Assembly: GCA_965220225.1 (NCBI GenBank)
Contig: OZ244813.1
Coordinates: 2,826,570-2,890,569, forward strand
Reading direction: 5' to 3'
DNA length: 64,000 bases
From: Dehalococcoidia bacterium
GTDB taxonomy: Bacteria > Chloroflexota > Dehalococcoidia > Lucifugimonadales > Australimonadaceae
The position numbers and the translations under genes are program-made. A model generated the notes under the pieces. That model searched no databases and had not been told where the DNA came from. It saw nothing but the letters and a program-made list of their open reading frames with translations. Shown in pieces: positions 40,938-53,241 of this stretch; positions within the stretch are counted from its first letter, which is position 1; every line of letters begins with the position of its first letter.

Positions 40938-40948
40938 GCCACGTACCT

Positions 40949-41244
40949 GTCATTTCGAGCGAAGCCGAGAAATCTCTCGGGGCACCCCGCTCGTGGTGAG
41001 CCTGTCGAACCATCCTGCGCAGGCAGGGACCTCGCATCTCACCTCTCCTGAGGGAGGGTTAGGGTGAGGGCCCTCCGGGGTGGTGTGGTGAAGGGCTTGT
41101 CATTTCGAGCGAAGCCGAGAAATCTCTCGGGGCTCTGCCCGCTCATGGTGAGCCTGTCGAACCACCGTCATTCCCGCACCGGCGGGAATCCAGAGTGACC
41201 GGGCAGGTCACGCGGTGGGGTGGTGCCTGGTCCCCTCTCCCTTG
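40949..41244. repeat. Mosaic cluster of REP-like palindromes (families A, B, C, D)
   Basis: GTCATTTCGAGCGAAGCCGAGAAATCT x2, CGCTC(A/G)TGGTGAGCCTGTCGAACCA x2, one dRS3-like copy and family A. Confidence 0.8.
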
Positions 41245-41261
41245 GGGAATTACTAACAATG

Positions 41262-41438
41262 CTAGCCAACCTCTGCTTCCCGCGCTATCAGCATTGCATC
41301 GGCCATCATGTACGCTACCGCAGCATAGCCTACGCGAGTCGCCTCTTCTGTCACAACCTTAGTGTGCGGGTTACTTGCCATCAATCCCGCTAACGCTTGT
41401 CCCGCGAACCAGTCCCGTAGGCTTATGTTGTCCGGCAT
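41262..41438 (-). CDS. Small phage-type hypothetical protein (58 aa, MPDNISLRDWFAGQALAGL...AYMMADAMLIARE)
   Basis: Translated by hand; GGAG RBS; TAATG coupling; resembles the phage 'LRDYFAA..AM..AY..ADAML.AR' family; stop codon lies inside the left TIR. Confidence 0.7.
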   Translation of the reverse strand: MPDNISLRDWFAGQALAGLMASNPHTKVVTEEATRVGYAAVAYMMADAMLIAREAEVG

Positions 41439-41581
41439 TAGTTGCTCCCTTTGTCTTTCTTTTCCTTCTTCTGATACTTGTATCCGCCAGGAGGTGGTGC
41501 GCGGAACTGCATCACGACTTCCGCGATTTCTTCCGCTGTGTAGCCCTTCATATCCTTTGATGGCTTATTGTCCTTCGCCAC
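41438..41581 (-). CDS. Small basic hypothetical protein (47 aa, MAKDNKPSKDMKGYTAEEIAEVVMQF...)
   Basis: GGAGG RBS and GTG start just downstream of the transposase. Confidence 0.55.
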   Translation of the reverse strand: MAKDNKPSKDMKGYTAEEIAEVVMQFRAPPPGGYKYQKKEKKDKGSN

Positions 41582-41604
41582 TGTCCACCTCCCGCTTATC
41601 GAGT

Positions 41605-42558
41605 CTATTCTACTACATTTTGACTTACCAAGTCTTGCCAGCGCAGACGCTTCCCGACAATACCATCGGCCATAACGTCCAACTGTTGAGCCGTGTCCAA
41701 CGGGCGTTGATTGTGACGCCCTGCGAACTCGTTCACATATCTTTGCAAGTGCTTACCGCTCATCTGGTGGTAGGTTCCGTGATACCCACGCTTCAGCATC
41801 GCCCAATGGCTTTCAATGCCGTTGGTGTGCGCCGCTTCATTCACGAACTGCGAAACACCATGCTTCACAATCTTGTGCTCTTGTGGAATGTTCCGGTAGC
41901 CGGAATGTTCATCCGTGTAGACGATTGCATTGTCCGCTACCTGCTCCTCCACAAAGCCTTGCAAGGTTTCCGTCTTGGTGTCAGGTACGACGCGCAAGAC
42001 AACTTTGTTCATTTCACGCCCTTTCGCGCCCATAACCACAACCTTGCCGACTATGCCCGTACCCTTTCGGAGTTTCTTGTTAGCATGCTTGTTCCTTTCC
42101 AAGCCACCGATAAAGGTTTCGTCTACCTCGACCTCACCAGAGAGCTTGTCCATCCCCGCGTTCCACGCTTCCCTGATGCGGTGAGCCATGTGCCAAGCCG
42201 CCTTTTGGGATATCCCCAAGTCACGGTGCAACTTCATGCTGGACACACCCTTAAGGTTCGTAGCGTACAGGTAGAACGCCACCGCCCACTTACTAAGCGG
42301 GATGTTGGAATCGGCAAGAACCGAACCAGTCCGCACAGAGAAATGCTTGCGGCAGTCCCTGCACCTAAATGGCATAGGCTTGCGATTCGCAACCTCACGA
42401 GCATTACCAACCACGCCACAATGCGGGCAAGCAATCCCGTTAGGCCAACGACGCGCAATGAACCACTCTTCCGCTTTGCGCTCGTCAGCAAAGTAGGCAA
42501 TCGCTTCGGTAAGCGAGATACCCTTCCGTTCAGACCTGCCTGGTGCCTTCTTAGTCAT
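41605..42558 (-). CDS. IS1595-family DDE transposase
   Basis: Zn ribbon CPHCG...CRDC, HTH, VEVDETFIGG, YTDEHSGY and HTNGIESHWAMLKR...KHLQRYVNEF..RHN. Confidence 0.95.
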   Translation of the reverse strand: MTKKAPGRSERKGISLTEAIAYFADERKAEEWFIARRWPNGIACPHCGVVGNAREVANRKPMPFRCRDCRKHFSVRTGSVLADSNIPLSKWAVAFYLYATNLKGVSSMKLHRDLGISQKAAWHMAHRIREAWNAGMDKLSGEVEVDETFIGGLERNKHANKKLRKGTGIVGKVVVMGAKGREMNKVVLRVVPDTKTETLQGFVEEQVADNAIVYTDEHSGYRNIPQEHKIVKHGVSQFVNEAAHTNGIESHWAMLKRGYHGTYHQMSGKHLQRYVNEFAGRHNQRPLDTAQQLDVMADGIVGKRLRWQDLVSQNVVE

Positions 42559-42598
42559 ACTTCACATCCTCTTCAAACTAGAATATTGAACTGTGCGA

Positions 42599-42627
42599 AT
42601 CATAACATAAACACTTCCATTTGTCAA
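42599..42627 (-). promoter_or_regulatory. Near-consensus sigma70 promoter for the transposase
   Basis: Minus strand TTGACA-N17-TATGAT with TG extension. Confidence 0.7.
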
Positions 42628-42726
42628 GCGACAACGCGCTCGGATTTACGCCAATTACGTGCATTGCTGGAGGCGGGATTAGTTCAATATCCCTTGTTGA
42701 AAGGCGTGTTCCCGCCTCCAGCAAAC

Positions 42727-42755
42727 TTGACTCCGATATTCGATTGTACTACCAT
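42727..42755 (+). promoter_or_regulatory. Promoter of cargo cassette 1
   Basis: TTGACT-N17-TACCAT; spacer contains TATTCGATTGT. Confidence 0.6.
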
Positions 42756-42760
42756 CATTC

Positions 42761-42853
42761 TGCTACAAGTCCGCTTACCCCTGTGAGTCACCAGGCGGGA
42801 GCGTTGGGCTACCCATGCCCTCCTTGTCAGGCTCGCAGTGCGGACTTGTAGCA
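42761..42853 (+). ncRNA. Structured leader RNA (putative)
   Basis: Perfect 14-bp stem TGCTACAAGTCCGC/GCGGACTTGTAGCA with inner CTGTGAGTC/GGCTCGCAG. Confidence 0.5.
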
Positions 42854-42887
42854 AAGCACCAAGCTCTTGCCGCAAGGAGGGTTCCAC

Positions 42888-43499
42888 ATGCGTTATCTGT
42901 TACTGGTCGTCGTTGTTGCGGGCCTAGTAGCGTGCGCTTCACCGACGCCTACCCCTACGCCAACGGCAACTCCTAGACCTACACCTACTCCAACACCTAC
43001 TGCGACGCCTATTCCAACCGCAACACCTACGCCTACCCCTGAACCAACACCCACACCAACGGCGACGCCTACACCTACCCTGATTCCGACACCTACGTCC
43101 ACTCCATTACCTACGGCAACACCTACACCTATCCACTGGTACAGTCCGCAAGAAATCACGGAGGTCTACCAGACTAATCGTGCTCGTGCTCATATCCTGT
43201 TTGAAACCGGAACCGTCCATATTCAAGGCGAAGTATCCGAATTCCACACAAATCAACTTGGCCTAATCTACCTCGTCAAGCGGCGTGCGCCAGCAAGTGA
43301 TTTCTCATTCCTTACCGAAACAGACGCACAACGCGCCGCTAAGGATTGGAAGGTCATTAGAGCGAAGTTGTCCATCGAACAAGTAGCCGCAATGAACATT
43401 GGCGACCCTATCCGCTTGCGCTGTGATAGGCTTGAGCCTGATGAATACGTAGGGACAGGTGCGGAACTGATTTGCGCTAACCCTGTCCTGACACCATGA
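42888..43499 (+). CDS. Lipoprotein with PT-repeat linker and probable OB-fold (tRNA_anti-like) domain
   Basis: AAGGAGG RBS, lipobox LVAC, (PT)n linker, 'EITEVYQTN...VHIQGEV' and 'IGDPIRLRC' pattern. Confidence 0.7.
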
Positions 43500-43510
43500 G
43501 GCTTGCGCGT

Positions 43511-43633
43511 GGAGAGGTGCCGGAGTGGTTGAACGGGGCCGACTCCAAATCGGTTAGGGGCTTGGAAGTCTGACATTCTGTGTTTGTATTTCCTTTCAGT
43601 CCCTCGCGGGTTCGAATCCCGTCCTCTCCTCCA
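43511..43633 (+). tRNA. Atypical tRNA: anticodon CCA (Trp) on a Ser-like class II body, 51-nt variable arm, encoded CCA end
   Basis: Acceptor GGAGAGG/CCTCTCC; D arm CCGGAGTGGTTGAACGG; anticodon stem GCCGA/TCGGT with loop CTCCAAA; T arm GCGGG-TTCGAAT-CCCGT; U73-CCA. Confidence 0.8.
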
Positions 43634-43665
43634 GCCCCTCCTCACGCGAGCGCGTAGTCTTTGAT

Positions 43666-43695
43666 TTGACTCTATTCGATTGTTAATGCTAACGT
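43666..43695 (+). promoter_or_regulatory. Promoter of cargo cassette 2
   Basis: TTGACT-N18-TAACGT with TG extension; spacer again contains TATTCGATTGT. Confidence 0.5.
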
Positions 43696-43755
43696 CCTTA
43701 GTGACAAGTCCGAACCGTGTTGCGGGGCGGGCTTGTACTCATTTAAGGAGGTTCT

Positions 43756-43881
43756 ATGTTCGTAATGTTCTTTCGGTTCCCTGTGCCCGTTGTCCGTCGA
43801 TTCCGCGTACCGGAACCACCTCGCTCATTGGGGCTAGTTGCCGCCTACGAACGAGCAGGGTATGATTCGGACGCGGGCTAG
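43756..43881 (+). CDS. Putative 41-aa peptide (MFVMFFRFPVPVVRRFRVPEPPRSLGLVAAYERAGYDSDAG)
   Basis: Strong AAGGAGG RBS, partly paired within the upstream hairpin. Confidence 0.5.
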   Translation: MFVMFFRFPVPVVRRFRVPEPPRSLGLVAAYERAGYDSDAG

Positions 43882-43916
43882 TCATGGCTAGCCCGTAGAC
43901 GGCGGGGTAGTTCTCC

Positions 43917-44008
43917 GTGGCAGTGTTGCCAGTGTGGTTAACTGGACGAGGATTCAAACCCTTTGAACGACTCAGTGCGTGGCGGTTCGATTCCGCCTCT
44001 GCCCGCCA
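43917..44008 (+). tRNA. Degenerate tRNA-Sec-like RNA, anticodon UCA
   Basis: Long D stem CCAGT/ACTGG; TTCAAA loop; T arm GGCGG-TTCGATT-CCGCC; G73-CCA; acceptor and anticodon stems imperfect. Confidence 0.55.
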
Positions 44009-44057
44009 GCGTGGACTACCCCGCCGTCACCTTTGGCTAGCATTGTTAGTAATCCCC

Positions 44058-44170
44058 CTCCCTTGAGGGGAGAGGGCTAGGGAGAGGGTGAACCGGCGGT
44101 GTAGGGTGCCTGGTCTAGGGGCATCCCTCGTGGGTGCCCTTGCCCCGCTCATGGTGAGCCTGTCGAACCA
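44058..44170. repeat. REP-like cluster, right part (families A, E, C)
   Basis: CTCCCTTGAGGGGAGAGGGCTAGGGAGAGGG, TAGGGGCATCCCTCGTGGGTGCCCT and CGCTCATGGTGAGCCTGTCGAACCA. Confidence 0.75.
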
Positions 44171-44254
44171 CCCTCGTCGTTCCAGCGCAGGTAGGGACCT
44201 CGCAGCCCTGCCGCGTGGTGTTAGGCCTCAACCAGGCGCGCCCGGCGCCCGTTG

Positions 44255-45124
44255 TCACCTGCGGAGACGCGCAAGCAAGCCGCCGCGCTTAGGCTGGGCC
44301 GGTTCCCCTTGCAGCATCTGCGGGGGAAGCGGTTCCGCAGAAACTAGGTGCTCTGCCACGACGGTGACTGCGCTCAAGCAGCCGGACAGTACCGATATCA
44401 CCGGTGGCCTTCGTTGAAATTCCCTTTCGCTGCCAGTTCCGTAGCCGGGGCTCGCCGCTACTATCTCTTCGTCCCGAAAGCAGACATCGACCATGACGCG
44501 TAGCTCCACACTGTCCTCATGCTCAGTTCCCTGCACGTCGTAGTACAGAGCTGTGCCTCCGATGAGGCGCGACGGCAACCGAGGGGGCTCGACACCATCC
44601 TTGAAACGAGCATCCAGCGACGTATGCGTATTCACCACGTTCAGGTACCGGTGCTTGTCTATGTTGCATATCAGGTGGAGCATCCATAGGTGACGCCCGA
44701 TGTCGCCCCTGAACGGCTGGAACGCCTCGATCAGATCGCAGCGGTCGTGCGTGATTCCTTCGAGTTTCCTCGGAGCAACTTTCAGATACTCCCCTTCTTC
44801 GTCAAAGATTGGGAATTCATTCTGCTTAGTGGGTTCCTTGCCGTTATCTTTGACAAGCGCATAGACGAGGTGGTCCAGGGCAGAACGAAGGTTGTAGGCG
44901 ACCTCCCCCACCCTGATGGGGAAGTCCATTGGAACATACCCCGGATCGCTCTCCCGTACGTGGAAGCGCCGAATCACGGGATTCCTGGCGCGTGACTCCA
45001 TCTCCAGGACCCTGCGCTGTATCTGATACTCGCAGTGTGCGGTGATGTCAGACCGCAGACTTTCCAAACACTCGCGCGCCCGGCGAATCTTCGCGTCTAC
45101 TCCTCGGCTGTCGACCATTGCCAC
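44255..45124 (-). CDS. Hypothetical protein (NLRSALDH ... NIDKHR pattern)
   Basis: 289 aa directly downstream of the methyltransferase. Confidence 0.75.
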   Translation of the reverse strand: MAMVDSRGVDAKIRRARECLESLRSDITAHCEYQIQRRVLEMESRARNPVIRRFHVRESDPGYVPMDFPIRVGEVAYNLRSALDHLVYALVKDNGKEPTKQNEFPIFDEEGEYLKVAPRKLEGITHDRCDLIEAFQPFRGDIGRHLWMLHLICNIDKHRYLNVVNTHTSLDARFKDGVEPPRLPSRLIGGTALYYDVQGTEHEDSVELRVMVDVCFRDEEIVAASPGYGTGSEREFQRRPPVISVLSGCLSAVTVVAEHLVSAEPLPPQMLQGEPAQPKRGGLLARLRR

Positions 45125-45129
45125 GCCCC

Positions 45130-46887
<1,758 letters not shown>

Positions 46888-46942
46888 CTAGGGGCCGGTG
46901 TCGCGGGTTGGGGCGTATGTTCGGTATGCTACACTCTTTGTC

Positions 46943-47962
46943 ATGAGTACTTGGTCGGTTCCGAACTCTGAGAAAGACAAGTTCAACAAAAAGATACGTC
47001 GATACGAACGCGAAGTAGACAACTATGACAACACTTGCCTGTTTGTCACAGCGGGGGCTGGCAGTCGCTGTAGACAACCTACCGTGAAGTGCCATTCAAT
47101 TCCTGAGGCATCTGTGCTGAGTCAATTGCAAGATCTGAATGGTAATGTTCTGGACATTGGTTGGGGCATGATTGAGTGGAGAAATGTCCTCACAGGGAAC
47201 ACTTCTGTAAACTTGGCATCATCAGAATTATTCAGGCCTCGTAGAATTAGCATTTCTGTAGCCTCGACTGCGCCTTTTGCTTGCAATGCTCATGACCAAA
47301 CATTCAGTGTGATTGATCAAGCGAATCCCAATCTCTCGGACTGGCGAGTGCCACTACTGATGGCATACCGTATTGCACTCTTCGCAAATGATCGCTGGAG
47401 AAAGTACGGGCATTTCCTATATAAGCAAGCAGAAATGCTTACAAAGGCACATAGGAATCCCTATGCCCAAGCTGAATTGAAGAGATTAATGGCTCAGCGA
47501 AATCTTCTGAGCCCACAGATGGTTCAGCAAGTAGAAGGGCTAGGTGAACTCTGGTGTAAGGCATCTGCATCTTTATCTGACATGGATGTTGTCTCGCTGC
47601 CTTTCAAGTCCAATTTGAAATTTGCTGCTGCTTTGATGATTGACTCGGGCACATCTTACATAACAATTAGCCCAAGAGGAAATACTACGCACGTTGCGAC
47701 TATAGTATACCGTCGGAAAGACAAGAGGCACGTGGCTGACTACGTCAAACAATTGAAAACACTATCAGGGTTATCTCGTATGACAGCTGATAGTGGAGTA
47801 GGGTTTGTAACTAAATTAATATCTGATGGATTCGGGAGTATGGTAGCGTCACCTTATTCATATGAATCACTTACGAATGAGGAACGTGATGCGATCAAAA
47901 TCAGCATTCATAAACTTAGCAGACCGGAGATATTGGAACAGATGTGGTCGCGCAGAGTGTGA
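46943..47962 (+). CDS. Hypothetical AT-rich protein with a Cys/His cluster
   Basis: C..C..CHSIP...ACNAHD..F; markedly lower GC than the host. Confidence 0.7.
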   Translation: MSTWSVPNSEKDKFNKKIRRYEREVDNYDNTCLFVTAGAGSRCRQPTVKCHSIPEASVLSQLQDLNGNVLDIGWGMIEWRNVLTGNTSVNLASSELFRPRRISISVASTAPFACNAHDQTFSVIDQANPNLSDWRVPLLMAYRIALFANDRWRKYGHFLYKQAEMLTKAHRNPYAQAELKRLMAQRNLLSPQMVQQVEGLGELWCKASASLSDMDVVSLPFKSNLKFAAALMIDSGTSYITISPRGNTTHVATIVYRRKDKRHVADYVKQLKTLSGLSRMTADSGVGFVTKLISDGFGSMVASPYSYESLTNEERDAIKISIHKLSRPEILEQMWSRRV

Positions 47963-48245
47963 GGTGTTCAGAGGGTTCCAAGTACCAAAAAGAGATTGGA
48001 CATGTCACTGAACAAGGAAGACGTATGGCGAATCTACGATATGCCCCTCGACGAGCTAGATAGACCGCCACGCGGTATACACAGCCGCTTGATTGATGCG
48101 CGGACTAGTACCCCACTCCCCTAGAACTCCCGCCTCTGACGAAATGACGACCCCCTCTCCCTCTGGGAGAGGGGCTGGGGGTGAAGGTTGTTTTCATGAC
48201 ACGCGCTCGTTGCGCAGACGCCACACCCCTCCCTACCCTGTCTGC

Positions 48246-49949
48246 ATGACTACCCAACCCGTCCCCGCGCCTGAACAATCCCATATCCCGGACACCCTCC
48301 CGCCGCAGGACAGGGCATACGCCGACCGCCTCACCCGCGCCCTCCGCTGCGGCGTACCCGGCTGCGAGTGCGCCGACGGCCCTATGGTCCACTGTCCCTC
48401 CCACAGCCACGCCGAGGTCCCGACCCTCACCGTCTCCTACGACCCGAAACGCGGCTTCGACTTCCAATGCCTCGTCTGTCCCCCGTTCCGAATCCGGGAC
48501 GCCCTTGTGAAGCGCGGACTCGCGCCGGAAGGGGAGTTCTACACCGCCTTCGGCGCGCAGGAAGCCGGACTCCAACCCTTCTACTTCTTCATTCAGCAGC
48601 CCCAGGACTGGCTCTGGCCCAACCGCATACCGCTCGGCAAGCTCACCCTCATCGCCGGATACCCCTCATCCGGCAAGACCGCCATCGCACTCGACATCGC
48701 CGCCCGCGTCTCCCGTGGCGCAGCCGCCCCCGATCAGCCGGACTCCCTCTTTCCCTCCGCGCCCGTCGTCCTTGCACTGCTCGACGGCAACCCCAAGGCC
48801 GACGTCCTCCCAATCCTCCGCCTGTTCGGCGCCGACTTGGAACGCATCTACCTCGCCGACCTCCTCTCGCCCACGCACCCCGTCGACTACTACCCCGACG
48901 ACCCGCCTGAGGACGATGACGGCCCGTACTCCTTCGAGGACGACGACGGTCTCGATGATGAGGACGACGATGACGTCGAGTACCTGTTTGACAACGACGG
49001 CAACGAGACACGCGTTCCCCGACGCAAGCCGGTCGGCTTGAAAGCCCCCGTTCGCGACCCGTTCTGGACGCCCGCCACTTCCGGCTCGAAACTCACCGCC
49101 CCCTGGCCGCGCCTCGACAAGGTCATGGGACGGCTCGCCAACTACCTTGCCGAGGGGAAGGCCGCCCTCCTCGTCGTCGACCAGGTCGAAGACCTCGCCG
49201 CCATGCACCGCACTCACGTCGCCACCGTCCTGGGCATGCTCAAGGCGCTCGCCGCGCGCTCGGGCGCTGCCGTCGTCGCCCTCGCCCACAACCCCGCGCA
49301 GAACTACCCCCGCGCCGTCACCGCCATACAGAACCGCCTGCCCCTCGCCTCCGTCGTATTCACCACCGCCGTCGTCGAACCGGGCGGACGCCGCTTCCTC
49401 GTCCCCCTCCGCCCCGCCATGAGCGACGATACCCCCGCCATACCCTTCGTCCTTCCCCGTTCTCCGTCGCTCCCGCGGAAGCAGGAGCCTCGCACCCCAC
49501 CTCTCCCTCGGGGAGAGGTCGTCGCGCACAGTGCGGCGGGTGAGCCTCGCATCCCACCTCTCCCTCGGGGAGAGGTCGCCGCGCCCAGCGCGGCGGGTGA
49601 GGGTTTCACCGTCGCCTGGCGCAAGCCCGTCTTCCCCGCCCACATGAAAGCCCTCACCGAGCCCCGCCCCAACGACGGCGCGAAGACCCGCGCCGCGCAA
49701 ACCTTCCTCATGCGCGCCCTCAGCGATGGTCCTCGTCCCGCCGCCGATGTCGAGCGCGAGGCCGCTCTGATCGGCGTCTCGAAGTCCACGCTCGTCCGGG
49801 CCCGCGCGCTCTGCAACGTCAAAGCCTTTCGCGTCGGTACGCCCGGTACCCACACCGGTGCCGGCGCGTGGTACTGGTCCCTTCCGTCAGGAGACACTTT
49901 GCAACAGGATGAGACACCCGCCGCCCCAGCCGAAGTTGTAAACGGATGA
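48246..49949 (+). CDS. AAA_25/RepA-like ATPase with primase-type Zn-binding N-terminus
   Basis: CPSH..PTLTVS..FQC, WLWPNRIPLGKLTLIAGYPSSGKT (Walker A), LLVVD (Walker B), C-terminal wHTH-like segment ending WYWSLP. Confidence 0.8.
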   Translation: MTTQPVPAPEQSHIPDTLPPQDRAYADRLTRALRCGVPGCECADGPMVHCPSHSHAEVPTLTVSYDPKRGFDFQCLVCPPFRIRDALVKRGLAPEGEFYTAFGAQEAGLQPFYFFIQQPQDWLWPNRIPLGKLTLIAGYPSSGKTAIALDIAARVSRGAAAPDQPDSLFPSAPVVLALLDGNPKADVLPILRLFGADLERIYLADLLSPTHPVDYYPDDPPEDDDGPYSFEDDDGLDDEDDDDVEYLFDNDGNETRVPRRKPVGLKAPVRDPFWTPATSGSKLTAPWPRLDKVMGRLANYLAEGKAALLVVDQVEDLAAMHRTHVATVLGMLKALAARSGAAVVALAHNPAQNYPRAVTAIQNRLPLASVVFTTAVVEPGGRRFLVPLRPAMSDDTPAIPFVLPRSPSLPRKQEPRTPPLPRGEVVAHSAAGEPRIPPLPRGEVAAPSAAGEGFTVAWRKPVFPAHMKALTEPRPNDGAKTRAAQTFLMRALSDGPRPAADVEREAALIGVSKSTLVRARALCNVKAFRVGTPGTHTGAGAWYWSLPSGDTLQQDETPAAPAEVVNG

Positions 49950-49970
49950 GATTGTTATTGCCTTAATGGC

Positions 49971-50095
49971 GGGAAGCAGGCCGTGGCCTGTGAAATACCC
50001 CTCGAAGGGCGGTTAAGAATGTCAAAACAGACCCGCGCTCCACTCTTGGAAAACCGATTAAGAATGTCAGCGGTGTCCCCCGTTGACATCCTTAA
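49971..50095. repeat. Iteron-like TTAAGAATGTCA / TTGACATCCTTAA repeats after GGGAAGCAGGCCGTGGCCT
   Basis: Two direct copies and one inverted copy; homologous to 4695-4845. Confidence 0.65.
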
Positions 50096-50120
50096 TCAGA
50101 GCGAGACCCCTACTGCCTGC

Positions 50121-50280
50121 CCACCTCTCCCCCTGGGAGAGGTCGACGCGCTTGCGCGGCGGGTGAGGGTGACCCGGTGGCGTGGGGGCGGTGCCTTGTG
50201 TAGGGGCGTCCCTCGTGGGCGCCCTTCGGGCTCCCCTCGCCCTCTGGGAGAGGGGAACGCGCTTCAGCGCGCGGTGAGGG
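50121..50280. repeat. REP-like cluster (A-E-A)
   Basis: Two family A hairpins flanking TAGGGGCGTCCCTCGTGGGCGCCCT. Confidence 0.75.
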
Positions 50281-50291
50281 TTGGGGTCTTC

Positions 50292-50738
50292 TCAGCCGCC
50301 GACCTTCTTGGTCAGGTTGCGGCCGAACTCCTGCATGATGCCGTCCGTCTTGCGCTTGATGATGCCCTGGCCGAACTCGCCAAGCTTGCCCATGATGTTG
50401 GCGTCCGAGTGCACGACGAGGTTGCTGCCGCCGTCACCGGCGTCCTCGACCGCCATGTCGATCTTCACGCGGACGTTGCCCGGCACCTTGCGGTCCGCGC
50501 CCTCGCCGGTCATGGAGACGCGCATCGCGGCGTCGTCCCGGGAGTCCACCTGCAACTTGCCCACGAGTCCCAGCGCAACGGGGCCGACGCGCACCTTCAC
50601 CGTGCCGGTGTACGTTCCGTCCGTCTCGGCAACGTCCGCCGCGCCGGGGATGCACATGCCGACCGCCGGGATGTCCGTCACGAACGCCCAGAGCGCGTCC
50701 GGCGAAGCGTTGACCTTATAGGTGTAGCTGAAGTCCAT
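50292..50738 (-). CDS. CoxG/SRPBCC family protein
   Basis: CIPGA, VKVRVGPV and GKLGEFGQGII. Confidence 0.85.
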   Translation of the reverse strand: MDFSYTYKVNASPDALWAFVTDIPAVGMCIPGAADVAETDGTYTGTVKVRVGPVALGLVGKLQVDSRDDAAMRVSMTGEGADRKVPGNVRVKIDMAVEDAGDGGSNLVVHSDANIMGKLGEFGQGIIKRKTDGIMQEFGRNLTKKVGG

Positions 50739-51021
50739 TCGATGCCCTTTCAGGGAGAGGATCGCCCCGCGCGCGGCGGGGCCTCTCCCATGATAGGAGC
50801 GCACCCCCGCTCCGGCAACCGGAGTCCTTGCGGACCGCGCTCTGGCGTAATCTTTCCCACCCACCCGCCCGAACGCTTGTGGGGGACACCCCCACTCCCC
50901 CGGCATAGGGGCTCTGCCCCTCTGCACTCCCTATCGACATCTTTGCAGAGAGGCAGTTATTGCTCATCACGCGCCTCACGAGAGGGAGCAGACCCGAGGG
51001 CTCGTGGTAGGCTGGCCTCCC

Positions 51022-52491
51022 ATGCGTGCCCGCAGGCTCCCAACCAGACTGCTCCCCATCGCTGCCCTTCCGCTCCTCGTGCTCACCGCACTCGCGGGGG
51101 TTGCGCACGCTCCGAGCGCCGCCCTGCCCGCGCTGGAGCTGGAGCGCGTCTTCCCGGCGCTGACGTTCGAGCGGCCCGTGCTGCTCACCCACGCGGGCGA
51201 CGGCTCAGGGCGGGTGTACGTCGTGGAGCAGCACGGCGTGGTCCACCGCATCGACCCCGCTACGCCGGACCGGACGGACGTCTTCCTGGACATCAGCCCG
51301 CGCGTGAGCCGTCGAGGGAACGAGGAGGGGCTGCTGGGGCTGGCGTTCGACCCTGCGTTCCCGGAGAACGGGCGCTTCTACGTCTACTACAGCGCGGCGT
51401 CGCCTCGCCGGTCGGTGCTGTCGCGGTTCGAGACCGGCGCGAACGGGCTGGGCGACCCCGCATCGGAGGCCGTGCTGCTGGAAGTGGCCCAGCCGTACTC
51501 CAACCACAACGGCGGGATGATCGAGTTCGGGCCGGACGGCATGCTCTACGTGGCGCTCGGCGACGGAGGCTCCGCGGGCGACCCGCGGCGCCACGGGCAG
51601 GACCTCGGCACGCTGCTGGGCGCCATCCTCCGCATCGACGTGACGCAGCCGGCGGGCGGCGCTCCGTACGCGATACCCGCCGACAACCCGTTCGCCGGAC
51701 GCGACGACGCCCGCGGCGAGATATGGGCCTACGGCCTCCGCAACGCGTGGCGCTTCTCGTTCGACCGGGAGACCGGCGACCTGTGGACGGGCGACGTCGG
51801 CCAGAACGCGCTGGAGGAGGTGGACGTCGTCCGGCGAGGCCGCAACTACGGCTGGAACGAGATGGAGGGCTCGCGCTGCTTCCGGCCTGCGTGCGACCCC
51901 GGCGCCTTCGAGCCGCCCGTCGCGGAGTACGGGCGCGACATGGGCTGCTCGATCACCGGCGGCTACGTCTACCGCGGGCAGCGCGTCCCCGACCTGCGCG
52001 GCGTTTACCTGTACGCGGACTTCTGCTCCGGGCGCATCTGGGGACTCCGCTACGACGGCGAGCGCGTCACGGAGCAGGCACAACTCGCCCGTGCCGAGTT
52101 CCAGGTGCCGTCGTTCGGAGAGGACGAGGCGGGCGAGGTCTACGTGCTCGGGTTCGACGGGGGCATCTACACGTTCGCCGGGCCGCCCGGACAGGCGACG
52201 CAGCCCTCACCCACGCCCACAGGAACGGTTGCGGAACCCGGCCCTACCCCGCAGGTCCACCCTCTCCCCAGCCCTCTCCCCTCGAGGGAGAGGGGGTCGG
52301 ACGCTCCTTCGCCCACCCCAACGAGCCCGCCCGGGCAGCCAACTCCGACACCCCAGGCTGCGATCGGCACGCACATGCCCTCGATGTCAGGCGGTGGCGC
52401 CGCGTGGGGCATCGTCGTGGCGGCGATCGTGGTGGCCGCGCTCGCGGGCGGAGTCGTCTACGCCGGGCGGCGGTTCCGGAGGAGGCGTTAG
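51022..52491 (+). CDS. PQQ-dependent glucose/sorbosone dehydrogenase family protein with C-terminal TM anchor
   Basis: NHNGG..FGPDGMLY..GDGG, IWAYGLRN.WRFSFD and DVGQ. Confidence 0.9.
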   Translation: MRARRLPTRLLPIAALPLLVLTALAGVAHAPSAALPALELERVFPALTFERPVLLTHAGDGSGRVYVVEQHGVVHRIDPATPDRTDVFLDISPRVSRRGNEEGLLGLAFDPAFPENGRFYVYYSAASPRRSVLSRFETGANGLGDPASEAVLLEVAQPYSNHNGGMIEFGPDGMLYVALGDGGSAGDPRRHGQDLGTLLGAILRIDVTQPAGGAPYAIPADNPFAGRDDARGEIWAYGLRNAWRFSFDRETGDLWTGDVGQNALEEVDVVRRGRNYGWNEMEGSRCFRPACDPGAFEPPVAEYGRDMGCSITGGYVYRGQRVPDLRGVYLYADFCSGRIWGLRYDGERVTEQAQLARAEFQVPSFGEDEAGEVYVLGFDGGIYTFAGPPGQATQPSPTPTGTVAEPGPTPQVHPLPSPLPSRERGSDAPSPTPTSPPGQPTPTPQAAIGTHMPSMSGGGAAWGIVVAAIVVAALAGGVVYAGRRFRRRR

Positions 52492-53135
52492 CCCGCGGCG
52501 CCCCGCTTGAACATCTCCACTACCTCGTCCGCCGTGCGGATGCGCGCGAAGATGGGGAAGATGCGCTCCATGAACATGTTCAGGTTGTCGTCCGGGCCGG
52601 AGCAGGCGTCGCTGACGACCACGATGTTGAAATCGAGGTCGCGCGCCGAGTAGGCCGTGCTCGCGATGCCGATGTGGATCGCGCCGCCGAACAGGACGAT
52701 GGTGTCGATGCCCCTGGTGCGCAGGCTCAGCTGCAGGTGCGTCTGGTGGAACGAGCTCCACCGGTGCTTCGCGATCAGGTAGTCGTCCGGTGTCGGCGCC
52801 AGCTCGTCGATGACCTCGGAACTCCAGCTGCCGTGGGAGACGTTGCGGTACGCCGTCGTGAAGCCCTGGTCCGGGTCCTCCCACGGTTCGAGCGCGTAGT
52901 TCGTGTCGGAGTAGATGTGCGCCGAGTCCGACCCGTCAGGGCGGTGGTCGGCCTTCGGGTAGAACGACGGGACGCCGAGCGCCGACGCCACCTCCCGCAC
53001 CTTCACGCAGTTGGCCACGATCGGCTCCATCTTCCTCTGGTTCTCCTCGCTGGAGCCCCGGAAATAGACGTTGAGCATGTCGAAGAACACGAGTCCGGTC
53101 TTCTTCGGATCGAGCGCATCGTACGGCATCGCCAC
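52488..53135 (-). CDS. Isochorismatase-family hydrolase
   Basis: FDMLN, KHRWSSF and VVSDACS. Confidence 0.85.
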   Translation of the reverse strand: MAMPYDALDPKKTGLVFFDMLNVYFRGSSEENQRKMEPIVANCVKVREVASALGVPSFYPKADHRPDGSDSAHIYSDTNYALEPWEDPDQGFTTAYRNVSHGSWSSEVIDELAPTPDDYLIAKHRWSSFHQTHLQLSLRTRGIDTIVLFGGAIHIGIASTAYSARDLDFNIVVVSDACSGPDDNLNMFMERIFPIFARIRTADEVVEMFKRGAAG

Positions 53136-53241
53136 CCTCCTTTTGGTCCGGCATCGGGGACGGCTGTAGGCTATGGTTGCCCCGTTGCCGCGTCAAATCA
53201 ACATCGATGAACAGGATGGACAGAATGGGGGAACAAGCAGC

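What the first reader, a model, noticed from the sequence alone, without database searches (positions are those of the whole stretch)
43511..43633. Chimeric tRNA: Trp anticodon on a Ser-like class II body with a 51-nt variable arm
Seen: all four stems pair, the anticodon is CCA (43545-43547), and the variable region 43555-43605 can pair AGGGGCT/AGTCCCT and TGGAAG/CTTTCA around a U-rich core. The discriminator is U. Known: bacterial tRNA-Trp is class I (short variable loop, G73), GGAGAG acceptors with this D arm resemble tRNA-Ser, and SerRS recognises the variable arm rather than the anticodon. Inference: it may insert Ser at UGG, or be a non-translational tRNA mimic. The arm is far longer than in normal class II tRNAs, and U73 fits neither Ser nor Trp.
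Basis: partly seen in the sequence, partly recalled or inferred. Interest (0 to 1): 0.85.

Follow-up and report, generated by a model that had tools for sequence, protein, structure and literature searches.

The report
Transposon-carried serine-type tRNA with tryptophan anticodon
A structurally intact tRNA gene with a serine-type body, a tryptophan anticodon and a very long extra arm rides inside a small jumping gene, and related jumping genes in other bacteria carry similarly mismatched tRNAs, which suggests that these elements spread tRNAs able to misread the genetic code or to act as tRNA mimics.

Summary
Window 43511-43633 (+) is a full-length tRNA: Rfam tRNA 50.4 bits against a cut-off of 29. 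It has a 7/5 cloverleaf, anticodon CCA (43545-43547), a 51-nt variable region (43555-43605), U73 and an encoded CCA end. Its body is closest to tRNA-Ser(GGA), and all stem differences keep pairing. ARAGORN misses it.

New here: the gene is a passenger of a 2813-bp IS1595-family transposable element (41245-44057). The element has 25-bp inverted repeats (24/25), an 8-bp target duplication (CTCCCTTG) and about 52-54% GC in a 67% GC genome.

Related IS1595 elements (transposases 52-58% identical) carry other intact but mismatched tRNAs:
- two identical copies of an 8/4 allo-tRNA-like gene (GAU) in the same genome;
- a Leu-like tRNA(AGG) with a 42-nt variable region, plus an allo-like tRNA(AAG);
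- a Leu-like tRNA(GGC);
- a Cys-like tRNA(GCU).

No homologue of the CCA gene was found in 60 relatives or in the pattern scans of three collections. No RNA data exist.

Most likely it is a mobile Ser-type tRNA that can be serylated, because SerRS ignores the anticodon, and would decode UGG weakly. A non-translational tRNA mimic and a neutral passenger remain serious rivals. I rate it a new variant of a known kind (allo-tRNA and tRNAProX-like natural missense tRNAs).

The parts
43511..43633 (+). tRNA gene: Ser-type 7/5 cloverleaf, anticodon CCA, U73, encoded CCA
   Evidence: Rfam RF00005 50.4 bits, full length; direct reading; own scanner
43545..43547 (+). anticodon CCA in loop CUCCAAA (U33, A37)
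43555..43605 (+). 51-nt variable region: 7-bp basal stem as in tRNA-Ser, then an internal loop and a further U-rich helix of about 32 nt
   Evidence: fold -17.5 kcal/mol, z -3.07; comparison with the genome's tRNA-Ser(GGA)
43630..43630 (+). discriminator U73
41245..44057 (.). IS1595-family transposable element (2813 bp) that contains the tRNA gene
   Evidence: terminal inverted repeats and target duplication; transposase domains; low GC
41245..41269 (+). left terminal inverted repeat GGGAATTACTAAC...
   Evidence: (I1)
44033..44057 (-). right terminal inverted repeat, 24 of 25 identical to the left one
   Evidence: (I1)
41237..41244 (+). target-site duplication CTCCCTTG, left copy
   Evidence: the uninterrupted target model occurs elsewhere in the genome
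44058..44065 (+). target-site duplication CTCCCTTG, right copy
41605..42558 (-). transposase (317 aa): Zn_ribbon_IS1595 plus DDE_Tnp_IS1595
   Evidence: Pfam 2.5e-40 and 9.3e-09; promoter-like site 42627-42599 with 11 of 12 matches
42867..43499 (+). passenger ORF: predicted lipoprotein with a Pro/Thr-rich linker; its stop lies 11 nt before the tRNA
   Evidence: translation; weak phrog_15511 hit; promoter-like site 42727-42755

Best explanation
The gene is a structurally intact class II tRNA of serine type that travels as cargo of an IS1595-family transposon.

Shown:
- It has a full cloverleaf with all conserved tertiary nucleotides.
- It has Ser-type acceptor, D-arm and basal variable stem, anticodon CCA, U73 and an encoded CCA end.
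- It lies between the inverted repeats of a transposon flanked by an 8-bp target duplication.
- Related transposons carry other intact tRNAs whose anticodon does not fit their body.

Inferred:
- It is transcribed with the upstream lipoprotein gene from a promoter divergent from the transposase promoter.
- RNase P and 3' processing cut it out.
- SerRS charges it with serine, because SerRS reads the variable arm and acceptor, not the anticodon.
- It would then insert Ser at UGG Trp codons.
- It probably does so weakly, because U73 and the 32-nt extension of the variable arm should lower charging or ribosome use.

On this reading it is a mobile, attenuated missense tRNA. It works like allo-tRNAs and tRNAProX but has a canonical 7/5 frame and an aptamer-like arm.
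For: - tRNA quality: 50.4 bits, full length, ranking 46th of the 50 RF00005 matches in the genome.
- Body: 82% identity over positions 1-61 and 92% over 88-123 to the genome's tRNA-Ser(GGA).
- Stem differences from that gene all keep pairing: 27-43 C-G to G-U, 28-42 A-U to C-G, 49-65 G-C to G-U.
- The basal variable stem and its single unpaired flanking nucleotides are as in tRNA-Ser.
- All 43 tRNAs my scanner finds in the genome, this one included, encode CCA.
- Transposon: inverted repeats 24 of 25, duplication CTCCCTTG. The uninterrupted target model occurs 3 times exactly (24 nt) and 3 times with up to 2 mismatches (36 nt) elsewhere in the genome. The transposase carries the family's domains.
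- Recurrence in related elements: G000 has two identical 2777-bp copies with 8-bp duplications and an 8/4 allo-like tRNA(GAU). G239 has a Leu-like tRNA(AGG), 110 nt with a 42-nt variable region, plus an allo-like tRNA(AAG), inside inverted repeats with duplication CTTCTAAG. G140 has a Cys-like tRNA(GCU) inside inverted repeats with duplication AATCTAAG. G354 has a Leu-like tRNA(GGC) in two 100%-identical units of at least 5.7 kb.
- Six of the seven passenger genes are of Ser or Leu type, whose synthetases do not read the anticodon (abstract of PMC11028032 in the listing).
- Mukai 2017 (PMC5389517, passages): Ser-identity allo-tRNAs with Leu anticodons insert Ser in E. coli, and G73 or U73 is typical of them.
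- Mukai 2020 (PMC7590224, abstract and passages): hairpins grafted on the tip of the variable arm can leave a tRNA active.
Against: - No expression, processing or charging data. No RNA run is listed.
- The gene is a singleton, so no covariation test is possible.
- The structure-preserving differences are measured against a host tRNA-Ser that need not be its ancestor.
- Six of the 7 Trp codons of the element's own transposase align with Trp in homologues, so Ser at UGG would harm the element itself.
- Mukai 2020 (passages): V-Spinach tRNAs with large variable-loop inserts had only marginal activity, and one bulge in the variable stem abolished serylation.
- Mukai 2017 (passage): six transposon/TA-linked allo-tRNA(UAU) variants were inactive in E. 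coli translation and were proposed to be non-translational.
- G73, not U73, is present in all four tRNA-Ser and in tRNA-Sec of this genome.
Confidence: 0.4

Rival explanations
1. It is a non-translational tRNA mimic that serves the transposon. The cloverleaf is kept because RNase P, tRNA-binding proteins or the transposition and regulation machinery use it. The extended variable arm is a protein- or RNA-binding module. The anticodon is free to vary because it is never used on the ribosome.
For: Anticodons differ in every related passenger tRNA while the cloverleaves stay intact. Two unrelated bodies, Ser-like here and Leu-like in G239, both gained a long extra helix with a U-rich tip. In four elements the tRNA is transcribed divergently from the transposase gene. 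Mukai 2017 found transposon/TA-linked allo-tRNA(UAU) inactive in translation and proposed a non-translational role. Ser at UGG would damage the conserved Trp residues of the element's own transposase.
Against: No partner protein is shared. The lipoprotein ORF has no homologue in the other 72 loci searched, and passenger ORFs differ between elements. The arm extension has no complementary target in the element or genome. The bias towards Ser/Leu bodies and the fully canonical acceptor, T arm and CCA end are what a charged tRNA needs, not what a mimic needs.
Confidence: 0.3
2. It is a neutral or decaying passenger. A tRNA-Ser gene was captured by the transposon, then lost its Ser anticodon and G73 and gained an insertion in the arm. 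It is tolerated because it is poorly expressed or inactive.
For: Single copy, no homologue found. Three derived changes (anticodon, discriminator, arm) all sit at sites that matter for function. No own promoter or terminator was predicted next to the gene. Decayed relatives would escape my detection, which biases the sample towards intact genes.
Against: No stem is broken and every tertiary nucleotide is kept. At least four independent body types (Ser 7/5, allo 8/4, Leu, Cys) in related elements are all intact yet all mismatched. If capture were neutral, young captures should still carry their original anticodon, and 0 of 7 do. Two of these elements exist as identical duplicate copies, so they are active and recent.
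Confidence: 0.22
3. It is an extra tRNA-Trp. TrpRS charges it through the CCA anticodon, and the element supplies additional UGG decoding capacity.
For: The anticodon loop CUCCAAA is identical to that of the genome's own tRNA-Trp. Large phages carry class II tRNAs with CCA anticodon and G73 in their tRNA clusters.
Against: The acceptor is G1-C72 with U73, whereas the genome's tRNA-Trp has A1-U72 with G73. That G73 and the acceptor end matter to bacterial TrpRS is recalled, not tested. The body is of Ser type throughout. The genome already has a normal tRNA-Trp.
Confidence: 0.06

Closest known systems
allo-tRNAs (Mukai et al. 2017, NAR, PMC5389517; passages read)
   Same: Ser-type identity features (long variable arm, G73 or U73) combined with non-Ser anticodons. 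They are patchily distributed and were reported near toxin-antitoxin genes and a transposon-related ORF. Some insert Ser at sense codons in E. coli.
   Different: Allo-tRNAs are defined by an 8/4 or 9/3 acceptor/T branch and a long D stem with a tetraloop. This gene is a canonical 7/5 tRNA with an ordinary tRNA-Ser D arm and a variable region more than twice as long. True allo-like genes do sit in the sister IS1595 elements.
tRNAProX family (tRNAProA/N/T) of Streptomycetaceae (PMC10404621; passages read)
   Same: Natural bacterial tRNAs whose anticodon does not match their amino-acid identity, and which mistranslate sense codons.
   Different: They are class I Pro-type tRNAs encoded next to a dedicated ProRSx. 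Here no synthetase gene is linked, the body is Ser-type class II, and the carrier is an insertion sequence. The passages I saw of that paper mention no transposon.
Engineered aptamer-tagged tRNAs and V-Spinach tRNAs (Mukai 2020, PMC7590224; abstract and passages read)
   Same: A hairpin is added to the tip of the variable arm of a class II tRNA. Such tRNAs can stay translationally active and can be sequestered or recruited by proteins that bind the added hairpin.
   Different: Those are synthetic. This is a natural gene, and no partner of its arm is known.
IS1595-family insertion sequences with passenger genes
   Same: DDE_Tnp_IS1595 transposase with an N-terminal zinc ribbon, terminal inverted repeats beginning GGG.ATTA, 8-bp target duplication, extra non-transposase genes.
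   Different: My three literature searches found no report of tRNA genes as passengers of this family.
nev-tRNAs of nematodes (Hamashima et al. 2016; seen only as reference 8 of PMC5389517, content recalled)
   Same: Class II variable arm combined with anticodons of class I amino acids.
   Different: They are eukaryotic and chromosomal, with arms of ordinary length.

Membership tests
tRNA (Rfam RF00005) | Full cloverleaf scoring above the curated threshold | tested here: met
   50.4 bits against 29, model positions 1-71
tRNA (Rfam RF00005) | Conserved tertiary nucleotides: U8, A14, G18G19, U33, purine 37, T-loop UUCGAAU, C48 opposite G15 | tested here: met
   direct reading and the Rfam alignment
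bacterial tRNA-Ser | Class II variable arm with a Ser-type base: one unpaired nucleotide on each side and a stem of at least 6 bp | tested here: met
   7-bp basal stem; same first 7 letters and flanking U and C as the genome's tRNA-Ser(GGA)
bacterial tRNA-Ser | Ser-type acceptor (G1-C72, G2-C71, A3-U70) and 3-bp D stem with C11-G24 (identity set recalled from E. coli work) | tested here: met
   the acceptor GGAGAGG and the D stem are identical to the host tRNA-Ser(GGA); the D loop differs at two adjacent positions, CC to UU
bacterial tRNA-Ser | Discriminator G73 | tested here: not met
   U at 43630; all four tRNA-Ser and tRNA-Sec of the genome have G73
bacterial tRNA-Ser | Serine anticodon (NGA or GCU) | tested here: not met
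   CCA
bacterial tRNA-Ser | Charged by SerRS | not testable with these tools
   needs an aminoacylation assay
bacterial tRNA-Trp | Anticodon CCA | tested here: met
   43545-43547
bacterial tRNA-Trp | Class I body with a 4-5 nt variable loop; G73; A1-U72 as in the host's own tRNA-Trp | tested here: not met
   51-nt variable region, U73, G1-C72; the host tRNA-Trp has a 5-nt loop, G73 and A1-U72
allo-tRNA (Mukai 2017) | 8/4 or 9/3 acceptor/T branch | tested here: not met
   7-bp acceptor and 5-bp T stem
allo-tRNA (Mukai 2017) | Long D stem with a tetraloop, tRNA-Sec-like | tested here: not met
   3-bp D stem with an 11-nt loop. By contrast, the allo-like genes of the sister elements hit the tRNA-Sec model at 42.1 and 41.4 bits, below its threshold of 47
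allo-tRNA (Mukai 2017) | Long variable arm, G73 or U73, non-Ser anticodon | tested here: met
   criteria from passages of PMC5389517
IS1595-family transposable element | Transposase with DDE_Tnp_IS1595 and Zn_ribbon_IS1595 domains | tested here: met
   2.5e-40 and 9.3e-09
IS1595-family transposable element | Terminal inverted repeats and 8-bp target duplication enclosing the cargo | tested here: met
   24 of 25 inverted repeat; CTCCCTTG on both sides; the tRNA lies 399 nt inside the right repeat
IS1595-family transposable element | Mobility of this very element | tested here: inconclusive
   single copy in the genome. The target duplication and the empty-site model argue for one past insertion. 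The sister element has two identical copies

The most novel reading that the evidence does not exclude
IS1595-family transposons are vehicles for a hidden class of anticodon-swapped tRNAs. These include Ser-, Leu- and Cys-type bodies and the enigmatic allo-tRNAs, and some carry aptamer-like extensions of the variable arm. The tRNAs would be selected cargo: mobile devices that recode or mistranslate chosen sense codons, or tRNA mimics that tie transposon activity to the state of the translation apparatus. That would also explain where allo-tRNAs come from and why they are so patchily distributed.
Probability: 0.25. Interest if true: 0.85.

Novelty: new variant of a known kind. Interest (0 to 1): 0.68.

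Why it matters
Natural tRNAs that break the anticodon/identity rule are rare, and each known family (allo-tRNAs, tRNAProX) has changed views on how rigid the code is. This case adds three things:
- a canonical 7/5 Ser-type tRNA aimed at the single Trp codon;
- a natural variable arm 51 nt long, more than twice the length in the host's own class II tRNAs, resembling the synthetic aptamer-tagged tRNAs;
- a concrete vehicle, an insertion-sequence family that repeatedly carries such tRNAs, including allo-tRNA-like genes.

If the cargo is functional, transposition would spread mistranslation or tRNA-mimic regulation between genomes. Standard tRNA finders would miss much of it: ARAGORN missed both long-armed genes.

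Tried and rejected
- Homologues of the gene. A full-length match was found in 1 of 61 genomes (the genome itself) among 60 relatives; the others matched only through ordinary tRNA-Ser genes. Phage and plasmid BLAST gave only partial hits to ordinary tRNA-Ser.
- Pattern scans for a Ser-type D arm plus CUCCAAA plus T arm: 0 loci in genome contigs with gaps of 29-59 and of 10-40, and 0 in metagenome contigs with gap 35-65.
- The same pattern with any anticodon and a long arm: 0 viral loci and 5 metagenome loci. By my reading, only L039 is one long-armed tRNA. Three are two neighbouring tRNA genes, and L043 is unresolved.
- A phylum-wide pattern for the anticodon arm found only two ordinary tRNA-Ser(GCU) in 400 genomes, so the source isoacceptor stays unknown.
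- Expression: no RNA holder is listed. All runs laid were contigs. X5 and X6 hold only other organisms' tRNA-Ser and repeat pieces, not the element.
- Intron reading, rejected: the extension is about 32 nt, shows no bulge-helix-bulge shape in the fold, and the genome is bacterial in style.
- Insertion of a repeat or MITE into the arm, rejected: the extension has no other copy or complement in the genome.
- Integration-site remnant (att) reading, rejected: the gene is complete and lies inside, not at the edge of, the mobile unit.
- Dedicated synthetase or conserved partner protein: none. The neighbouring ORFs have no aaRS domain, and the lipoprotein's C-terminal domain has no hit in the other 72 loci searched.
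- The long + strand ORF 41362-42786 is an artefact opposite the transposase gene.
- tRNA-Ala(CGC) near the G402 elements lies 121 nt outside their inverted repeats, so I did not count it as cargo.
- The ends of the G343 element could not be resolved.
- Listing all tRNAs of four genomes was cut at 150 rows and gave no usable background.
- Supplementary files were not consulted. Supplementary figures of PMC5389517 (allo-tRNA sequences and loci) may already contain 7/5 irregular tRNAs or IS contexts.

Full report
**1. The observation**

Rfam's tRNA model matches window 43511-43630 (+) end to end at 50.4 bits (gathering 29; E 7.8e-08 for the window). It is the only Rfam family above threshold in the 64 kb.

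Read:
- acceptor 43511-17 paired with 43623-29;
- U8 G9;
- a 3-bp D stem with loop GAGUGGUUGAA;
- anticodon stem GCCGA/UCGGU;
- loop CUCCAAA with CCA at 43545-47;
- a 51-nt variable region, 43555-43605;
- T arm GCGGG-UUCGAAU-CCCGU;
- U73 at 43630 and an encoded CCA.

ARAGORN finds nothing in the window, presumably because of the arm length.

In the whole genome (2.94 Mb, one contig) RF00005 gives 50 matches, and this gene ranks 46th. That is above two tRNA-Leu genes, one tRNA-Ala gene and a second irregular class II tRNA described in section 7.

A strict cloverleaf scanner of my own recovers 43 tRNAs there. Variable regions are 4-5 nt in class I and 14-21 nt in class II. This gene has 51 nt.

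The arm alone folds at -17.5 kcal/mol, z -3.07.

Logan contigs of two runs of one sample reproduce 42860-44086 without a difference.

**2. What the body is**

The closest sequence in the genome is tRNA-Ser(GGA), 82% over positions 1-61 and 92% over 88-123.

Set side by side, the acceptor, the D stem, the first seven letters of the variable region and the T arm are those of tRNA-Ser(GGA).

The differences are:
- two D-loop letters;
- the anticodon (GGA to CCA);
- pairs 27-43 (C-G to G-U), 28-42 (A-U to C-G) and 49-65 (G-C to G-U), all still paired;
- G73 to U73;
- about 32 extra nucleotides at the tip of the variable arm.

The genome also has a normal class I tRNA-Trp (A1-U72, G73), four tRNA-Ser genes and tRNA-Sec.

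**3. Where it sits**

The gene lies in a 52-57% GC patch of a 67% GC genome.

The + strand ORF 41362-42786 is spurious. The real gene is on the other strand, 41605-42558, and encodes an IS1595-family transposase (DDE_Tnp_IS1595 2.5e-40, Zn_ribbon_IS1595 9.3e-09).

Inverted repeats of 25 bp (24 identical) lie at 41245-41269 and 44033-44057. Each is flanked on the outside by CTCCCTTG.

A model of the uninterrupted target (left flank, one CTCCCTTG, right flank) occurs elsewhere in the genome, which is rich in such palindromic repeats. There are 3 exact copies of the 24-nt model and 3 copies of the 36-nt model with up to 2 mismatches.

So a 2813-bp element inserted there as one unit. It holds:
- the transposase gene, with promoter-like site 42627-42599 (11 of 12 matches);
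- a divergent lipoprotein ORF 42867-43499, with promoter-like site 42727-42755;
- the tRNA, 11 nt after that ORF's stop;
- a short ORF.

The promoter scan and translation are.

**4. It is not alone in kind**

The same genome has two 100%-identical copies of a 2777-bp IS1595 element. Its inverted repeats begin GGGAATTATATAC, its 8-bp duplications are AAATGCAA and TATCTTTA, and its transposase is 58% identical. It carries, 94 nt from one end, an 8/4 allo-tRNA-like gene with anticodon GAU and G73. That gene hits the tRNA-Sec model at 42.1 bits, below its threshold of 47.

Transposase homologues (E <= 1e-30) occur in 71 of 401 sampled genomes of the phylum, the genome itself included.

I scanned 66 further transposase places with Rfam, with flanks of 1.5 or 3 kb, and with ARAGORN and my scanner.

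Four places, in three elements, hold Rfam-positive tRNAs whose anticodon does not fit the body:
- G239: Leu-like, A73, anticodon AGG, 110 nt with a 42-nt variable region. ARAGORN missed it. It lies inside inverted repeats with duplication CTTCTAAG.
- G354: Leu-like, A73, anticodon GGC, in two units of at least 5716 bp at 100% identity.
- G140: a D arm like tRNA-Cys, U73, anticodon GCU, inside a 4386-bp element with duplication AATCTAAG.

ARAGORN also allo-like genes in the G239 element (AAG) and next to the G343 transposase (GAG). The G343 gene scores 41.4 bits on tRNA-Sec.

In the window, G239, G354 and G140 the tRNA is transcribed divergently from the transposase gene.

Seven other Rfam tRNA hits near transposases are of class I length (72-75 nt) with 43-71 bits. 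Two of them (G402) lie outside the inverted repeats. I did not examine the rest further.

Passenger proteins differ between elements. The G140 element carries a methylase-Mrr fusion 41% identical to the one that lies 1 kb beyond the window element.

**5. How it may work**

SerRS and LeuRS do not read the anticodon (abstract of PMC11028032; PMC7609411 and PMC5389517, passages). An intact Ser-type tRNA with CCA should therefore be serylated and read UGG.

In the allo-tRNA study, Ser-identity allo-tRNAs with Leu anticodons inserted Ser at CUC/UUA sense codons in E. coli, and strong expression was toxic. G73 or U73 was the rule.

Hairpins grafted on the arm tip can leave a tRNA active, yet large inserts gave marginal activity and a bulge in the stem blocked SerRS. 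Here the first 7 bp of the arm are unbroken.

Against a strong missense activity: 6 of the 7 UGG codons of the element's own transposase align with Trp in homologues. Transposon- and TA-linked allo-tRNA(UAU) variants were inactive in translation.

I therefore rank the readings as follows:
- an attenuated Ser-at-UGG missense tRNA: 0.40;
- a non-translational mimic serving the element: 0.30;
- a neutral passenger: 0.22;
- a Trp-charged extra tRNA: 0.06.

The recurrent pattern speaks against pure decay. There are at least four body types, all intact, and 0 of 7 carries a matching anticodon. Decayed copies would have escaped detection, however.

**6. Comparison and novelty**

The gene works like an allo-tRNA or a tRNAProX but is a member of neither. 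The 8/4 or 9/3 branch and the Sec-like D arm were tested and not met, and no synthetase gene is linked.

Searches of the held literature found no report of tRNA passengers in IS1595 elements or of a natural class II tRNA with such an arm. Those searches cover only the held library. Supplements were closed, and IS1595 family features are recalled.

Verdict: a real and unusual gene, a new variant of a known kind, with a context that makes the origin and spread of irregular tRNAs testable.

**7. Also seen**

- A further irregular class II tRNA in the genome (anticodon CAA, G73, 95 nt, 46.6 bits), not found in 40 relatives.
- Phage class II tRNAs with CCA.
- A metagenomic Ser-like tRNA(GAU) with a 34-nt arm.

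Noticed in passing
G000:C1:1725181-1727957 and 2219568-2222344 (outside the window; loci L045, L046, L048): Two 100%-identical copies of a 2777-bp IS1595-family element with 8-bp target duplications. Each carries an 8/4 allo-tRNA-like gene (anticodon GAU, G73) 94 nt from one end. The gene scores 42.1 bits on the tRNA-Sec model, below its threshold of 47, and ARAGORN calls it tRNA-Ile.
   Followed up: yes
G000:C1:2267902-2267996 (locus L044 5001-5095): A second irregular class II tRNA: acceptor GGAACGU, G73, anticodon CAA (a Leu codon), variable region of about 25 nt, Rfam 46.6 bits, no encoded CCA, in a 54-56% GC patch. It was not found in 40 relatives, and no IS1595 transposase lies within 5 kb.
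   Followed up: partly
L115 3736-3845(-) and 6437-6534(-); L116 6007-6091(+); L117 5175-5247(+); L106 4477-4570(+): IS1595-linked tRNAs in other genomes of the phylum: Leu-like with anticodon AGG and a 42-nt variable region; allo-like AAG; Leu-like GGC; Cys-like GCU; allo-like GAG.
   Followed up: yes
viral loci L024-L034 (for example L024 11175-11263): Phage contigs of 112-225 kb carry, within their tRNA clusters, class II tRNAs of 82-89 nt with anticodon CCA and G73. The first two acceptor pairs vary between copies. My scanner confirmed 11 of 15 pattern-matched loci. Their amino-acid identity is unknown.
   Followed up: partly
metagenome locus L039 6078-6181(-): A Ser-like tRNA (acceptor GGAGGCG, G73, CCA end) with anticodon GAU and a variable region of about 34 nt, Rfam 50.7 bits. 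No IS1595 transposase lies in the 6.7 kb held, and the tRNA sits about 550 nt from the end of the DNA held.
   Followed up: partly
window 40942-41244, 44050-44220, 48151-48190: Dense clusters of short palindromic repeats (REP- or MITE-like) with tens of copies across the genome. The IS inserted into one of them. The same repeats attract contigs of other organisms when metagenome runs are laid.
   Followed up: partly
window 45130-46788 (-): A DNA methylase (N6_N4_Mtase) fused to an Mrr-type endonuclease domain. It is 41% identical to a fusion protein carried inside the tRNA-bearing IS1595 element of G140. It is flanked by ORFs of unknown family (44255-45124, and 46898-47962 at 43-48% GC).
   Followed up: partly
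window 48093-53210 (+): An AAA_25/DnaB-like ATPase (618 aa) followed by a 1075-aa ORF without any Pfam match, possibly the remains of an integrated element next to the low-GC patch.
   Followed up: no
G000:C1:619901-619996, 1681346-1681424, 2073863-2073946, 2535683-2535778: Four ARAGORN tRNA calls of 79-96 nt with no Rfam support, taken as false positives.
   Followed up: partly
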